Source: an uncultured Actinomycetes bacterium (GTDB lineage Bacteria > Actinomycetota > Acidimicrobiia > IMCC26256 > PALSA-610). Taken from it: a stretch of DNA of 64,000 nucleotides. Shown piece after piece: positions 3,178-5,269 of this stretch. Each line of letters opens with the position of its first letter. Positions within the stretch are counted from its first letter, which is position 1. Location: positions 428,010 to 492,009 of the forward strand of contig CAVUYD010000004.1 of NCBI GenBank assembly GCA_963745645.1. Direction: 5' to 3'. The position numbers and the translations under genes are program-made. The notes beneath the pieces were generated by a model. It was not told where the DNA came from and ran no database searches. It saw only the letters and a program-made list of their open reading frames with translations.

Positions 3178-4151
3178 ATGTACGGCACGCAGCAGACATC
3201 GAGCCGGACGGACTGGCAGGGCGGGTTGACGACACCGCGTCGCAATCGGCTACTTCCACGGCAAGATGATGGATGTCCACCACTTCGAGATGGAGACCGG
3301 ATACGGCATCGCGATGCGGCGCATGCTCAACCGGCTCGTGTCGGGCTATGGCGTCTTGTGCGGGCTCGACGTCGTGTCCCGGCGACGATCCCTGTTCGGT
3401 GCGCATCTCGCCTGGCGCGGCGATCGACGGGTGGGGGCGCGAGATCATCGTGCCGACCACGACGCAGTCGCTGCCGATTCCCGCCGCGCTCGTCGACCGC
3501 GTGTGCGGTCGGGAGGAGCCGTGCGACGACGACGAGTCGCAGAAGCACGACGGTGGATCGGCGGGAAGCGATCGCCCCGCAAGCCGCGTCGGCGAACGCC
3601 GACGAACGCGACGACGAAGGCCGCCACGAGCACGAAGGACATGGTCACGACGATGATGACGAGGCGTGCGTCACCGTGCTGCTCTGCTACCACGAGTGCG
3701 AGAGTGATCCCGTCGCGGTGCTCGCGGGCGACTGCTCCACGTCGACGCCATGCGCGCCGAGCTCGATCCGTGAGCAGTACCGCATCGACTTCGAAGCCGG
3801 CTGCACCGATCCGGTCGAGATCAGCTGCCGCTTCCCCGACGTCTTGCGCCGCGGCGAGATCGACTACGGCGCGCTCGCGCGCTGGGTCACCCAGGAGTGC
3901 CTGCGCCACCGATGAACCCCTGCATCCCACTCGCGAACCTTCGGCTCGACTGTCGCGACGATGGCTGCGCGATCCACAACATCGACATCGAGATCCGGCC
4001 GGTCGTGTACGGCAACGACATCATCCTCGACATCCTCAGCCGGATCATCGAGGAGAGTCGCCCGGCCGGCGGCGCAAAGCGGACGCCGACGCTGACGGCG
4101 ACGAAGACGGCACCGACAGCGAGACGAAAGAGGAGCCATGGCAAACGATGA
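3178..4151 (+). pseudogene. Conserved hypothetical protein, paralog B of the tail-locus family; frame-disrupted as sequenced
   Basis: ATG 3178 is preceded by 'caggaggagcc'. Pieces in three frames assemble to '...RRNR(Y)FHGKMMDVHHFEMETGYGIAMRRMLNRLVSGYGVLCGLDVV', then 'PGDDPCSVRISPGAAIDGWGREIIVPTTTQSLPIP' (ORF 3273..3656). Next comes 'ACVTVLLCYHECESDPVAVLAGDCSTSTPCAPSSIREQYRIDFEAG...' (ORF 3163..3915), then 'NPCIPLANLRLDCRDDGCAIHNIDIEIRPVVYGNDIILDILSRIIEES' (ORF 3897..4151). The order of motifs is collinear with paralog C. Confidence 0.6.
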
Positions 4152-5269
4152 CAACTGCGCCGACCGCCAAGCACGGCGACGCGACGTCGACGCCCTGTTG
4201 CACAGACGGTCACTCGTGCTTCCCGTTCGGCATCCAAGAGCGTCCGCGCTACTACCCGCGCCAGCTGATGACGCCCGACGAGCTCACGCTCGAAGCGGAG
4301 TACTTCCGTGATCGCATGCGCCGGCACAACGTGTACCTGCACGGGTGGGGTGTCGTGTGCGGCGCGCTCGTCTGCACGGTACCGGCGAAGTCGACGGCCG
4401 CGACCAACACGCCGACGCGGATCTCCGCGTCCGACGCGACGTATCGGCAGCAGCGTGGTGACAGCGGCGCGACACCTACGGACGTGCCGGCGACCGAGCC
4501 GTGGATCGTGCGCGTCGAACCCGGCTACATCCTCGGTCCGTACGGCGACGAGATCATCATCGACTGCACGCGCGAGGTGCCGCTCCGGGGAACCGGAGTG
4601 AGCAGCTGCGGTGACGTCACCGACGCACTCGATCCTTGGTGCAGCGAGGTGTACGTCAAGCAGAAGGAAGGCCCGCGGTACATCGCGGTGCGGTACAAGG
4701 AGTGCCAGGTCCGGCCAGTTCGCGCGCAGCCCGCGGCATGCGGTTGCGACGAGCAACCGTGCGAGTACTCGCGGCTGCGCGACGGCTACGAGATCGGCAT
4801 CCTCGACTGCTGTCCCGACTCGCACACGGGTCCGCTCCATCGGATGGACGATCGCCACAACCCGACGTGTCCGTGCTGTCCCGACAGCCCCTGGGTCGTG
4901 CTCGCAAAGGTCGAGGTCGACCGCGAAGGCATCGTGCAGGTGATCGACAACTGCGAGTGTCGCCGCATCGTGCACTCCGACCGTGAGATCTGGACGCATT
5001 GCACCGGTAGCGACTGCGACGAAGGTGTCGACCAGGTGCGTCCCTACGACGAGGTGCCGGCGTATCGCGAGACCACGGGGATCTATACCGGTCCCGAGGC
5101 CGCGCGCTCGGCCGAGGAAGCCGAGCTGCGACCCGCGCCCGCGAAGCGTGTCGCGAAACGTGCCCGTCGCAGCGAGACGCCTACACCGGAGCCCGCGAAG
5201 CGAGTCCAGAAGCGCGCCCGCAAGGCGACGAAACGCACCCCACGCAAGCGTAGCGGCGGCAACGGCTGA
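4148..5269 (+). CDS. Cysteine-rich conserved hypothetical protein, paralog C, with Lys/Arg-rich C-terminal repeat tail
   Basis: This is the in-frame part of ORF 3266..5269 from 'MTTAPTAKHG'. It contains the motif 'RPRYYPRQLMTPDELTLEAEYFRDRMRRHNVYLHGWGVVCGALV' and about 20 Cys in clusters (CC..C, C.C...C, DCC, C.CC, C.C, C....C). The tail reads 'PAPAKRVAKRARRSETPTPEPAKRVQKRARKATKRTPRKR'. An alternative ATG at 4138 has the same 'gaggagccATG' context as paralog B but is in another frame, so the true 5' end is uncertain. Confidence 0.65.
   Translation: MTTAPTAKHGDATSTPCCTDGHSCFPFGIQERPRYYPRQLMTPDELTLEAEYFRDRMRRHNVYLHGWGVVCGALVCTVPAKSTAATNTPTRISASDATYRQQRGDSGATPTDVPATEPWIVRVEPGYILGPYGDEIIIDCTREVPLRGTGVSSCGDVTDALDPWCSEVYVKQKEGPRYIAVRYKECQVRPVRAQPAACGCDEQPCEYSRLRDGYEIGILDCCPDSHTGPLHRMDDRHNPTCPCCPDSPWVVLAKVEVDREGIVQVIDNCECRRIVHSDREIWTHCTGSDCDEGVDQVRPYDEVPAYRETTGIYTGPEAARSAEEAELRPAPAKRVAKRARRSETPTPEPAKRVQKRARKATKRTPRKRSGGNG

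What the first reader, a model, noticed from the sequence alone, without database searches (positions are those of the whole stretch)
4148..5269. Cysteine-dense paralog with a histone-like / NLS-like Lys-Arg repeat tail
- **Seen:** paralog C has about 20 cysteines in about 370 aa, arranged in tight clusters ('PCCTDGHSC', 'ACGCDEQPC', 'DCCPDSH', 'PTCPCCPDSP', 'NCEC', 'HCTGSDC').
- **Seen:** it ends in a duplicated basic unit, 'PAKRVAKRARR ... PAKRVQKRARK ATKRTPRKR'. Paralog B keeps some of the Cys positions but lacks the tail.
- **Inference:** the clusters suggest several Zn/metal sites or extracellular disulfide knots.
- **Inference:** the tail resembles nucleic-acid-binding or nuclear-localisation-like sequences. 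That would be unexpected for a structural tail protein and could indicate a delivered or target-binding role.
Basis: partly seen in the sequence, partly recalled or inferred. Interest (0 to 1): 0.6.

Follow-up and report, generated by a model that had tools for sequence, protein, structure and literature searches.

The report
Cysteine-rich injection-system baseplate fibre, basic tail
This gene encodes a conserved short "fibre" of a phage-tail-like injection machine, stapled by twelve conserved cysteines and ending in a floppy, positively charged tail that most likely sticks to negatively charged cell surfaces; it is a member of a family catalogued in 2026, not a nuclear-targeted or DNA-binding effector.

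Summary
Window 4148-5269 (+) encodes a 373-aa protein with 21 Cys (5.6%). It ends in a duplicated Lys/Arg unit: 17 K/R in the last 45 residues, net +16. The tail is not a frame artefact. GC3 supports the frame, three close orthologs keep it, and its synonymous:nonsynonymous ratio against a 75%-identical ortholog (14:9) matches the core (69:44).

The protein is the last gene of a conserved module: P0, A, Tail_P2_I, B, C, then an eCIS_core effector. Its model matches the Anabaena Cis19 crown protein and TssK. Its Rhodococcus pWB1 ortholog (CP015530_18) is listed as an eBAP3 tail fibre by Nachmias et al. 2026.

Twelve Cys positions are conserved in at least 89% of 201 relatives. They behave as groups of four, which fits structural Zn sites or disulfides; I could not resolve which.

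A short polybasic C-terminal tip is a family trait. It occurs in 70% of members, against 20% of control ORFs and 1-21% of paralogs A, P0 and B. This protein is an extreme case.

Best reading: a trimeric baseplate stub with a polycationic tether for anionic surfaces. The NLS and nucleic-acid readings are unsupported.

The neighbouring genes (Tail_P2_I, B, effector) carry at least 11 frameshifts.

Verdict: new member of a known kind, moderate-low interest.

The parts
4148..5269 (+). CDS of 'paralog C' (373 aa plus TGA stop): an eBAP3-type, TssK/Cis19-like baseplate fibre of an eCIS
   Evidence: Single frame by GC3. Identical to database protein P0001, with 1128 homologs. Foldseek matches 7b5h_AA (Cis19) at E 1e-4, probability 1.0, and TssK at E 0.05-0.2. 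The ortholog CP015530_18 is listed as eBAP3.
4148..4228 (+). aa 1-27: variable, low-confidence N-terminal segment carrying C17, C18 and C24
   Evidence: pLDDT below 50 for residues 1-18. C17 is Cys in 47% of members; C18 and C24 are not conserved. N-termini of family members carry 0-3 Cys.
4229..4384 (+). aa 28-79: baseplate-anchor module. Contains ERPRYYPRQ, a long helix (43-65) and the GWGVVCGALVC hairpin with C71 and C76
   Evidence: This is the only part shared with paralogs A and P0 (hhalign 97-98%). It matches NCBIfam CIS13_fam positions 5-54 and the N-termini of All3314 and 9wt0.
4385..4492 (+). aa 80-115: variable Ser/Thr/Ala-rich insertion, predicted disordered
   Evidence: pLDDT is 50-62. 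Length is variable and gapped in the alignment.
4493..5017 (+). aa 116-290: beta-rich 'shoulder' body, net charge -11, carrying 16 Cys. Conserved ones are C165, C198, C200, C205, C222, C241, C244, C269, C271 and C285
   Evidence: pLDDT is mostly 82-96. Cys conservation; group behaviour; charge.
5018..5128 (+). aa 291-327: acidic, fast-evolving linker (net -7)
   Evidence: 4 synonymous against 23 nonsynonymous codon differences relative to L004. pLDDT 53-57.
5129..5266 (+). aa 328-373: duplicated polybasic tail (17 K/R in the last 45 aa, net +16), predicted disordered
   Evidence: Conserved in L004, P0002 and P0003. 14 synonymous against 9 nonsynonymous differences relative to L004.
5131..5220 (+). 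The two copies of the 36-nt direct repeat (5131-5166 and 5185-5220, 81% identical) that encode the duplicated PAKRV.KRAR unit
4148..4151 (+). ATGA overlap of the paralog B stop (TGA 4149-4151) and the paralog C start (ATG 4148-4150)
3178..4151 (+). Paralog B, the full-length homolog of C (Cys-rich, with an acidic/His-rich loop). In this window it is broken by four frame changes
   Evidence: Homology to C: hhalign E 2e-25.
910..3152 (+). Tail_P2_I / NHL-repeat baseplate gene (Cis12/TssG-like), the presumed docking partner. It carries at least six frame changes here
   Evidence: Pfam and NCBIfam hits on the intact L004 ortholog.
2..913 (+). Paralog A (5' end cut by the window edge). Shares only the N-terminal anchor with C
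5282..6672 (+). Downstream effector-type gene: eCIS_core (DUF4157) domain followed by an OmpA-like domain, split by a frame change near 5750
   Evidence: Pfam PF13699 at 1.5e-29 and PF00691. Frame analysis.

Best explanation
**What it is (shown).** Paralog C is a structural component of an extracellular-type contractile injection system (eCIS). It is the last of four TssK/Cis19-like 'short fibre' genes, in the order P0, A, Tail_P2_I, B, C, followed by an eCIS_core effector.

**How it sits on the machine (inferred from Cis19, TssK and phage receptor-binding proteins).** It forms a trimer. The trimer docks through its N-terminal helix-hairpin module (aa 28-79) on the Tail_P2_I (TssG-like) baseplate protein.

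**The cysteines (conservation and grouping shown; chemistry inferred).** Twelve conserved cysteines cross-brace the acidic beta-rich body. I group them provisionally as C71/C198/C200/C205, C76/C222/C269/C271 and C165/C241/C244/C285. My estimate is about 55% structural Zn(Cys)4 sites and about 35% disulfides that form after release. The function is rigidity.

**The tail (conservation shown; function inferred).** A disordered acidic linker leads out of the body to a polycationic tail. That would give three tails per trimer and, by analogy, 18 per particle. The tail most likely acts as a low-specificity electrostatic tether to polyanionic surfaces.

The target cell envelope is the more likely surface, given that the family is classed as eCIS fibres. 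The producer's own membrane is the alternative. In most relatives the same job is done by a 4-6-residue K/R tip. Here the tip has been expanded by an 18-codon duplication.
For: **Locus.** The same gene order is found in Nocardia, Rhodococcus pWB1, Chloroflexia, Acidobacteriota, Planctomycetota, Cyanobacteria and Proteobacteria. pWB1 carries the full eCIS gene set. An eCIS_core gene lies directly downstream.

**Fold.** The AF2 model is confident over the core, with blocks mostly at pLDDT 82-96. [quoted passage not shown] Phage tail-fibre hits appear in BFVD. The N-terminus matches CIS13_fam.

**Catalogue.** CP015530_18 is the pWB1 ortholog and is listed as eBAP3, with Baseplate_J genes at _23 and _24. 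PMC12923769 describes eBAP3 as TssK-like and Tail_P2_I-dependent, with up to four fibres per baseplate.

**Cysteines.**
- Twelve positions are at least 89% conserved in 201 sequences.
- Four are at least 98.8% conserved in 320 sequences.
- C76/C222/C269/C271 are all present in 207 sequences and all absent in 39.
- For C222/C271 alone: 237 have both, 73 have neither, 10 are discordant.

**Tail.**
- Family-wide basic tip: 70% against 20% of controls (p about 1e-36, not corrected for phylogeny).
- Specific to the C family: A 1%, P0 10%, B 21%.
- Purifying selection in this frame: 14 synonymous to 9 nonsynonymous differences, against 4 to 23 in the linker.
- Disordered: pLDDT 51-57.

**Precedent for the mechanism.** Lys/Ala/Pro-rich C-terminal tails of mycobacterial HBHA and Hlp bind sulfated glycans (PMC3293801, PMC2409343).
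Against: - No experiment exists on any member of the family. Trimer formation and docking are by analogy only.
- TM-scores to Cis19 and TssK are low (0.21-0.23), partly because about 40% of the model is disordered.
- Zn against disulfide is unresolved. Lineage-specific Cys appear as clean pairs (34/210, 119/147, 218/284) and total Cys counts are only 60% even. Against that, 3-of-4 states and Cys-to-His at position 271 fit metal sites.
- About 30% of the family, including Streptomyces, Nocardia and cyanobacteria, has no basic tip. The tip is therefore dispensable for the core function.
- In this genome the partner genes Tail_P2_I and B, and the effector, carry at least 11 frameshifts. The machine may be non-functional here, unless these are assembly errors.
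Confidence: 0.55

Rival explanations
1. Intracellular docking variant. The protein has the same identity, but the polybasic tails bind the anionic inner leaflet of the producer's cytoplasmic membrane. This would position the baseplate for firing, as TssK links the T6SS baseplate to the membrane and as Anabaena Cis13 anchors its CIS in the thylakoid membrane. The cysteines are Zn sites, as expected for a protein that stays in the cytoplasm.
For: The fold is TssK-like. Anabaena Cis13 anchors a CIS through a C-terminal membrane element (PMC8894136). All four paralogs are conserved 'minimal' proteins with no variable receptor-binding domain. The motif spacings (CxC, CxxC, Cx4C), the 3-of-4 states and the Cys-to-His change at 271 fit metal sites in a reducing compartment.
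Against: The loci carry the hallmarks of released eCIS (Pvc16 cap, DUF4157 effectors), and the family is catalogued as eCIS fibres. Many members carry Ig-like domains (PF09099, TIG) before the tip, which is typical of surface adhesion. The tail has no amphipathic or hydrophobic element. Clean pairwise Cys gains suggest that disulfides, and hence an oxidising environment, matter.
Confidence: 0.2
2. The tail is a nucleic-acid-binding or nuclear-localisation element, and the protein (or its tail) is delivered into a eukaryotic target or binds DNA/RNA.
For: The composition resembles NLS, S/TPKK and histone-H1 or HupB tails (KRVAKRARR, KRVQKRARK, TPRKR). Some eCIS target eukaryotes (PMC12923769).
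Against: It is a fixed structural gene of the baseplate module, not cargo. Effectors in these loci carry the eCIS_core domain and lie downstream. Basic tips of quite different sequence (RRRR, GKGK, KKxK) recur in this family across soil bacteria of many phyla. No nucleic-acid-binding domain was detected. Any K/R-rich stretch would score as an NLS.
Confidence: 0.05
3. Relic reading. The eCIS of this genome is decaying, and paralog C, although intact, has no current function. The enlarged tail is a neutral low-complexity expansion.
For: There are at least 11 frame changes in Tail_P2_I, B and the effector, while roughly 10 housekeeping genes in the window are intact. The insertions are not in homopolymers.
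Against: A and C are intact; under a uniform indel rate the chance of that is about 0.007 (note). The broken genes still have a strong GC3 signal and 55-86% identity to intact orthologs, which suggests very recent events or consensus errors in a MAG. The duplicated tail is shared with L004 and P0002, which have intact loci where visible, and it shows purifying selection.
Confidence: 0.2
4. The tail is an out-of-frame artefact of an indel near 5090-5110.
For: The GC3 contrast weakens after about 5020, and neighbouring genes do contain frameshifts.
Against: The same tail, including both repeat units, is present in L004 (a different MAG, 75% identity) and in P0002 (a JGI metagenome). A one-unit version is present in P0003/L003. 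Codon differences relative to L004 are mostly synonymous in this frame. The other two frames give Arg/Ser/Pro-rich out-of-frame-looking sequence.
Confidence: 0.01

Closest known systems
eBAP3-type eCIS tail fibres (Nachmias, Wang, Feng, Jiang, Levy, Nat Commun 2026, PMC12923769)
   Same: Both have an N-terminal shoulder-like baseplate-anchor domain of about 200 aa, sit next to a Tail_P2_I gene, have a TssK-like fold, and occur as up to four fibre genes per locus. The Rhodococcus pWB1 ortholog of this protein (CP015530_18) is in their eBAP3 list. They describe 'minimal attachment-only modules', which fits this architecture.
   Different: The paper never mentions cysteines (0 occurrences) and does not describe a polybasic C-terminal tip. 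This protein has no recognisable receptor-binding domain, only a disordered linker and a 46-aa K/R tail. The four-gene module is far more widespread in my genome scan (about 70 of 80 loci) than the 19 four-fibre clusters they report.
Anabaena thylakoid-anchored CIS crown protein Cis19 / All3314 (PDB 7B5H; eBAP4)
   Same: This is the best structural match (Foldseek E 1e-4, probability 1.0, 216 columns), with a weak N-terminal sequence match at aa 11-58. Cis19 forms six trimers on the baseplate with flexible distal parts thought to act as small tail fibres (PMC8894136).
   Different: Cis19 is 1476 aa, with large globular and PKD/Ig chains. Sequence identity is 17-18%. Its locus has Cis11/Cis12 but not the Tail_P2_I four-paralog module.
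T6SS baseplate protein TssK and the siphophage receptor-binding-protein shoulder domain (PDB 6N38, 5MWN; phage 1358 RBP 4RGG)
   Same: Weaker fold-level similarity over about 270 columns (E 0.05-0.6, probability 0.3-0.75). TssK is a trimer that docks on TssG loops, and Tail_P2_I is described as TssG-like.
   Different: No sequence-level match: there is no Pfam TssK hit. TssK has a C-terminal head that binds the membrane complex, whereas this protein has a disordered basic tail.
NCBIfam NF053767 CIS13 family contractile injection system protein
   Same: The N-terminal 45-90 residues of all four paralogs align to model positions 2-94.
   Different: Scores are 18-66 bits against a cut-off of 370. 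The remaining 300 positions of the model do not match, so this protein is not a member.
Lys/Ala/Pro-rich C-terminal tails of mycobacterial HBHA and Hlp (HupB)
   Same: These are disordered, repeated K-rich C-terminal tails in Actinobacteria that act as electrostatic adhesins for polyanions such as heparan sulfate and DNA (PMC3293801, PMC2409343). This is a functional analogy for the tail.
   Different: There is no homology. The tail here is Arg-rich rather than Lys/Ala-rich, and it is attached to a phage-tail-like particle protein. The analogy rests on composition only.

Membership tests
eBAP3 eCIS tail fibres (PMC12923769) | The gene lies in an eCIS locus next to a Tail_P2_I gene and downstream of Baseplate_J/gp25 genes | tested here: met
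   The window order is A, Tail_P2_I, B, C, eCIS_core. The full eCIS is present in the orthologous pWB1 locus. The same order occurs in about 70 of 80 loci.
eBAP3 eCIS tail fibres (PMC12923769) | N-terminal shoulder-like domain of about 200 aa with a TssK / tCIS-crown-like fold | tested here: met
   Foldseek matches 7b5h_AA at E 1e-4, probability 1.0; TssK (6n38, 5mwn) at E 0.05-0.2; phage 1358 RBP. The caveat is low TM-scores (0.21-0.23).
eBAP3 eCIS tail fibres (PMC12923769) | Match to the authors' eBAP3 HMM, or listing in their catalogue | tested here: inconclusive
   The HMM is not available. The pWB1 ortholog (P0073 = WP_065923607, 53-56% identical in the core) corresponds to CP015530_18, which is listed as eBAP3. 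The mapping is fixed by CP015530_23 and _24 being Baseplate_J. Membership of the window protein follows by orthology, not by a direct test.
eBAP5 / DUF6519 fibres | Pfam DUF6519 domain with a 200-aa insertion | tested here: not met
   No Pfam hit for C, A, P0 or B at E up to 0.1-1.
NCBIfam CIS13_fam (NF053767) | Whole-protein score at or above the curated cut-off of 370 bits | tested here: not met
   30.8 bits, covering only aa 31-80 against model positions 5-54. The L004 ortholog scores 32 bits.
T6SS TssK family | Sequence-level membership (Pfam/NCBIfam TssK models) and a T6SS gene context | tested here: not met
   No TssK model hit. The locus is of eCIS type, with Pvc16, a tail-tube gene and DUF4157. 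The resemblance is at fold level only.
Structural Zn(Cys)4 protein | Four Cys thiolates within coordination distance of one metal ion; metal present in the purified protein | not testable with these tools
   Model coordinates are not returned. Indirect evidence is mixed. In favour: 12 conserved Cys, one group of four lost and kept together (207 all, 39 none), 30 sequences with 3 of 4, and Cys-to-His at 271. Against: clean lineage-specific Cys pairs and 60% even Cys counts.
Classical NLS / histone-like nucleic-acid-binding tail | Demonstrated nuclear import or nucleic-acid binding; location in a delivered (cargo) protein or a nucleoid protein | not testable with these tools
   The match is compositional only. 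The context argues against it: this is a structural baseplate gene, and the effectors are separate eCIS_core proteins.

The most novel reading that the evidence does not exclude
The polybasic C-terminal tip, on a flexible Pro/Ala-rich leash, could be a previously undescribed and widely conserved targeting device of one TssK-like baseplate trimer in Tail_P2_I-type eCIS. On this reading these machines make first contact, or are triggered, by multivalent electrostatic capture of anionic envelopes or membranes rather than by a specific receptor-binding domain. A conserved tri-cluster of Cys4 metal sites would rigidify the stub. The window protein would be a naturally 'amplified' version, with a duplicated tail and net charge +16.
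Probability: 0.3. Interest if true: 0.5.

Novelty: new member of a known kind. Interest (0 to 1): 0.3.

Why it matters
eCIS are being engineered as programmable protein-delivery devices, and their fibres set target range. This family belongs to a module of four conserved TssK-like stubs found from Actinomycetota to Acidobacteriota and Cyanobacteria. It was catalogued only in 2026 and no member has been studied experimentally.

If the basic tip is a generic electrostatic adhesion or trigger element, it would explain how fibre-poor eCIS engage targets, and it would offer a simple handle for engineering. If the twelve cysteines are Zn sites or disulfides, that bears on how particles are stabilised outside the cell.

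For this particular window the result is mostly a clarification. The protein is an ordinary structural member of a known kind, not a nuclear-targeted or DNA-binding effector.

Tried and rejected
1. **Tail as a frame artefact: rejected.** GC3, orthologs carrying the same tail and the synonymous/nonsynonymous counts all support the frame.

2. **CIS13_fam membership: rejected.** 30.8 bits against a cut-off of 370.

3. **DUF6519/eBAP5: no hit**.

4. **Weak Pfam and PHROG hits treated as chance.** FAINT (E 0.0077, 16.7 bits, below the 20.7 cut-off), DUF2749, and PHROG hits at E above 0.2.

5. **PDB sequence search with the family profile: nothing significant** (best E 0.4). All3314 and 9wt0 appeared at E 1.3-2.3, limited to the N-terminal 45 residues.

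6. **Charge pairing between B's acidic loop and C's basic tail: not supported family-wide.** Spearman -0.08, p 0.46, over 78 loci. In the query's own subclade both are extreme (L004 -13/+13).

7. **Cys-count parity as a disulfide test: weak and non-discriminating.** 141 even against 93 odd, p 0.002. Cys4 sites also give even counts.

8. **Pairwise and quartet Cys covariation: does not separate Zn from disulfides**.

9. **Homopolymer (nanopore-type) explanation for the neighbouring frameshifts: not supported.** The insertions of 1-2 nt lie in non-repetitive sequence.

10. **Look-up of the exact protein's contig: nothing on record**. The source organism is therefore inferred only as an uncultured Actinomycetes-like MAG, from the nearest relative L004.

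11. **The 'Cis19' match in the phage Milano paper: text-matching artefact.** The matched string was CIS followed by citation 19.
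Full report
**1.

Window 4148-5269 (+) is one open frame. The ATG at 4148 overlaps the TGA of the upstream gene as ATGA. It encodes 373 aa with 21 cysteines (5.6%). Other in-frame proteins of the window have 0-1.8%.

All quoted motifs are present. The last 46 residues hold 17 K/R and 2 D/E, for a net charge of +16. The body is net -11 and the linker net -7.

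The duplicated unit is visible in the DNA as a 36-nt direct repeat at 5131-5166 and 5185-5220. The copies are 81% identical and 18 codons apart.

**2. The tail is real, not an indel artefact**

- GC3 keeps a single frame from about 4060 to 5260.
- The nearest genomic relative is L004, an uncultured Actinomycetes MAG at 75% identity. It has the same two-unit tail. So does P0002 from a JGI metagenome. P0003/L003 has a one-unit version.
- Codon comparison with L004 gives 14 synonymous-only against 9 nonsynonymous differences in the tail. The core gives a similar 69 against 44. The linker in between evolves freely, at 4 against 23.

**3. Genomic setting**

The gene directly downstream carries the eCIS_core (DUF4157) domain (PF13699, 1.5e-29) followed by an OmpA-like domain.

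Upstream lie three genes:
- paralog A (2-913);
- an NHL + Tail_P2_I baseplate gene (910-3152);
- paralog B (3178-4151).

The order P0, A, Tail_P2_I, B, C, effector recurs in:
- Nocardia and a Chloroflexia MAG;
- L003 and L004;
- about 70 of 80 loci fetched from 388 matching species genomes. These span Actinomycetota, Chloroflexota, Acidobacteriota, Planctomycetota, Cyanobacteria, Proteobacteria and others.

On Rhodococcus sp. WB1 plasmid pWB1 the module closes a complete eCIS. The genes are AAA ATPase, Pvc16 cap, sheath, tube, LysM, gpD, gpV, PAAR, gp25 and two Baseplate_J-like proteins.

The family is large:
- 1128 hits in the 5.8-billion-protein search;
- 348 clusters at 50% identity with E below 1e-30.

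Every source name shown in the listing of the 120 best hits is 'hypothetical protein'.

**4. What the protein is**

Profile comparison shows two paralog pairs:
- C and B are homologous over the whole core (hhalign probability 99.7%, E 2e-25).
- A and P0 are homologous to each other (E 1.6e-53).
- C shares only the N-terminal 80-105 residues with A and P0.

That shared N-terminal module also gives the weak hits to NCBIfam CIS13_fam, at 18-66 bits against a cut-off of 370. It also gives the weak hits to the first 45-58 residues of All3314 and a PKD protein in the PDB.

An AF2 model built from 120 homologs has mean pLDDT 70.9:
- aa 50-80 and 110-290 are mostly confident, with blocks at 82-96;
- aa 1-18, about 80-115, and everything after about 290 are low-confidence.

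Foldseek against the PDB puts the Anabaena CIS crown protein Cis19/All3314 (7B5H) first, at E 1e-4 and probability 1.0. T6SS TssK and the lactococcal phage 1358 receptor-binding protein follow. The viral library returns phage tail-fibre-type proteins.

Cis19 forms six trimers on the baseplate with flexible distal 'small tail fibres' (PMC8894136).

**5. It is already catalogued**

Nachmias et al. (Nat Commun 2026, PMC12923769) define five N-terminal eCIS baseplate-anchor domains. They describe eBAP3 as follows:
- about 200 aa, shoulder-like and TssK-like;
- tied to Tail_P2_I (TssG-like) loci;
- it ranges down to 'minimal attachment-only modules'.

Their Supplementary Data 5 lists CP015530_18, _19, _21 and _22 as eBAP3. 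CP015530 is pWB1. Their _23 and _24 are Baseplate_J. This fixes _22 as P0, _21 as A, _20 as Tail_P2_I, _19 as B and _18 as C.

That C gene is WP_065923607, my P0073. Their domain table gives B and C the same two domain families, and gives A and P0 a different one. This matches my hhalign result.

The window protein is therefore an ortholog of a catalogued eBAP3 fibre. The paper does not mention cysteines or a basic C-terminal tip.

**6. The cysteines**

In 201 non-redundant relatives, twelve positions are at least 89% Cys: C71, C76, C165, C198, C200, C205, C222, C241, C244, C269, C271 and C285.

I added 150 more distant representatives, giving 320 sequences that cover the core:
- C71, C198, C200, C205 and C241 stay at 98% or more;
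- C76, C222, C269 and C271 drop to 72-76%.

Those four behave as a unit:
- all four present in 207 sequences;
- none present in 39;
- exactly three present in 35, of which 30 lack only the hairpin Cys or only C269.

C222 and C271 are the tightest pair: 237 have both, 73 have neither and 10 are discordant (phi 0.92).

Evidence for disulfides:
- Lineage-specific cysteines arise as clean pairs: 34/210 at 10 both and 0 single, 119/147 at 19 and 1, 218/284 at 10 and 1.
- Total Cys counts lean even, 141 against 93, p 0.002.

Evidence for Zn(Cys)4 sites:
- cytoplasmic synthesis;
- CxC, CxxC and Cx4C spacings;
- all-or-none loss of a group of four;
- tolerated 3-of-4 states;
- single loss of C244 in 35 sequences, with no conserved partner lost alongside it;
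- Cys-to-His at position 271 in 8 sequences.

I estimate about 55% Zn sites and about 35% disulfides.

**7. The tail in family context**

Across the family, the region after the core is built as follows: an optional Ig-like domain (PF09099 or TIG in some members), then a Pro/Ala/Thr-rich linker, then a short basic cluster at the extreme C-terminus. Examples of that cluster are RRRR, GKGK and KKxK.

| Set | n | At least 4 K/R in the last 15 aa |
|---|---|---|
| C family | 201 | 70% |
| Control ORFs from the same loci | 809 | 20% |
| Paralog A | 68 | 1% |
| Paralog P0 | 67 | 10% |
| Paralog B | 80 | 21% |

The difference from controls is significant (Mann-Whitney p about 1e-36), but the test is not corrected for phylogeny.

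The sequences of the tips are unrelated, so what is conserved is charge. The window protein ranks second for K/R in the last 45 aa (17), behind a Phycisphaerales homolog with 27. About 30% of members have no basic tip; these include Streptomyces, Nocardia and cyanobacteria.

**8. Mechanism**

Shown:
- identity as a conserved baseplate-module protein;
- the fold class;
- conservation of the cysteines and of the charge;
- purifying selection on the tail.

Inferred by analogy with Cis19, TssK and phage receptor-binding proteins:
- trimer formation;
- docking on Tail_P2_I loops through aa 28-79.

Inferred from composition, disorder and position at the distal end:
- the tails act as polycationic tethers to anionic surfaces.

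Precedent for the last step comes from mycobacterial HBHA and Hlp. Their Lys-rich C-terminal tails bind heparan sulfate (PMC3293801, PMC2409343).

Whether the surface is a target envelope or the producer's membrane is open. The first fits the eCIS classification and the Ig-like domains in relatives. The second fits the TssK and Cis13 anchoring precedents.

The NLS or nucleic-acid reading has only composition in its favour. It conflicts with the structural, non-cargo position of the gene.

A test of one further idea failed family-wide. I asked whether C's basic tail pairs with B's acidic loop; the correlation was rho -0.08.

**9. Caveat for this genome**

Three neighbouring genes carry at least 11 frame changes:
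- Tail_P2_I has at least 6;
- B has 4, including +1 nt at about 3250, +1 nt at about 3377 and +2 nt at about 3901;
- the effector has 1, near 5750.

The insertions lie in non-repetitive sequence.

By contrast, these are intact:
- A and C;
- about ten other genes in the window, including PBP2, RodA and ClpX;
- all orthologous loci examined.

The broken genes keep a strong GC3 signal and 55-86% identity to their orthologs. This points to very recent decay or to local consensus errors. I cannot tell which without the reads.

**10. Verdict**

The Cys inference is plausible but unresolved between metal sites and disulfides. The NLS, nucleic-acid and delivered-protein inference is not supported.

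The protein is a new member of a known kind (eBAP3 minimal eCIS fibre). It has two features not described in the eBAP catalogue (PMC12923769):
- a conserved 12-Cys scaffold;
- a family-wide polybasic tip, here duplicated.

Interest is moderate-low (0.3).

Noticed in passing
window 910-3152, 3178-4151, ~5750: Three eCIS genes carry at least 11 frame changes: Tail_P2_I/NHL (at least 6), paralog B (4) and the eCIS_core+OmpA effector (1). Paralogs A and C, and about 10 unrelated genes of the window, are intact, as are all orthologous loci examined. The insertions are 1-2 nt and not in homopolymers. This is either recent pseudogenisation or local assembly error.
   Followed up: partly
window 910-913 and 4148-4151: ATGA stop/start overlaps join A to Tail_P2_I and B to C, which suggests translational coupling within the module.
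   Followed up: no
window 2-5269; loci L001-L084: The module P0, A, Tail_P2_I, B, C is conserved in about 70 of 80 loci across at least 8 phyla. It consists of two paralog pairs: P0/A (median 5 Cys each, no basic tip, shared C-terminal W.GW.G.E motif) and B/C (Cys-rich). The published catalogue reports only 19 clusters with four fibre genes.
   Followed up: partly
window ~3518-3645 (paralog B): Paralog B carries a strongly acidic, His-rich variable loop (...DERDDEGRHEHEGHGHDDDDE). Its net charge is about -12 to -13 in the closest orthologs, mirroring the +13 to +16 tail of C in the same subclade. No such charge correlation exists family-wide (rho -0.08).
   Followed up: yes
window 5282-6672: The downstream effector-type protein fuses an eCIS_core (DUF4157) domain to a complete OmpA-like peptidoglycan-binding domain and a Pro/Lys-rich C-terminal region. 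Orthologous loci carry different payload domains: YkuD, polysaccharide deacetylase and Tlde1.
   Followed up: partly
L050 (Phycisphaerales MAG), C-homolog C-terminus: This homolog has an even more extreme tail than the query: 27 K/R in the last 45 residues (...RRKKKKTGATRKKSARRKKATRKRRTSRRPTRRKRKKT). The tail has therefore expanded independently in a distant phylum.
   Followed up: no
window 11995-12068 (-), 18346-18418 (-), 52475-52555 (+): tRNA-Gly(TCC) and tRNA-Pro(TGG) are confirmed by both ARAGORN and Rfam. A tRNA-Val(CAC) called only by ARAGORN lies inside an acyltransferase ORF and is probably a false positive.
   Followed up: partly
window 4193-4219 (aa 16-24 of C): The N-terminal extension before the anchor module carries 2-3 cysteines in about two thirds of full-length family members, although their positions vary. 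In a trimer these could meet on the three-fold axis. This was not testable here.
   Followed up: no
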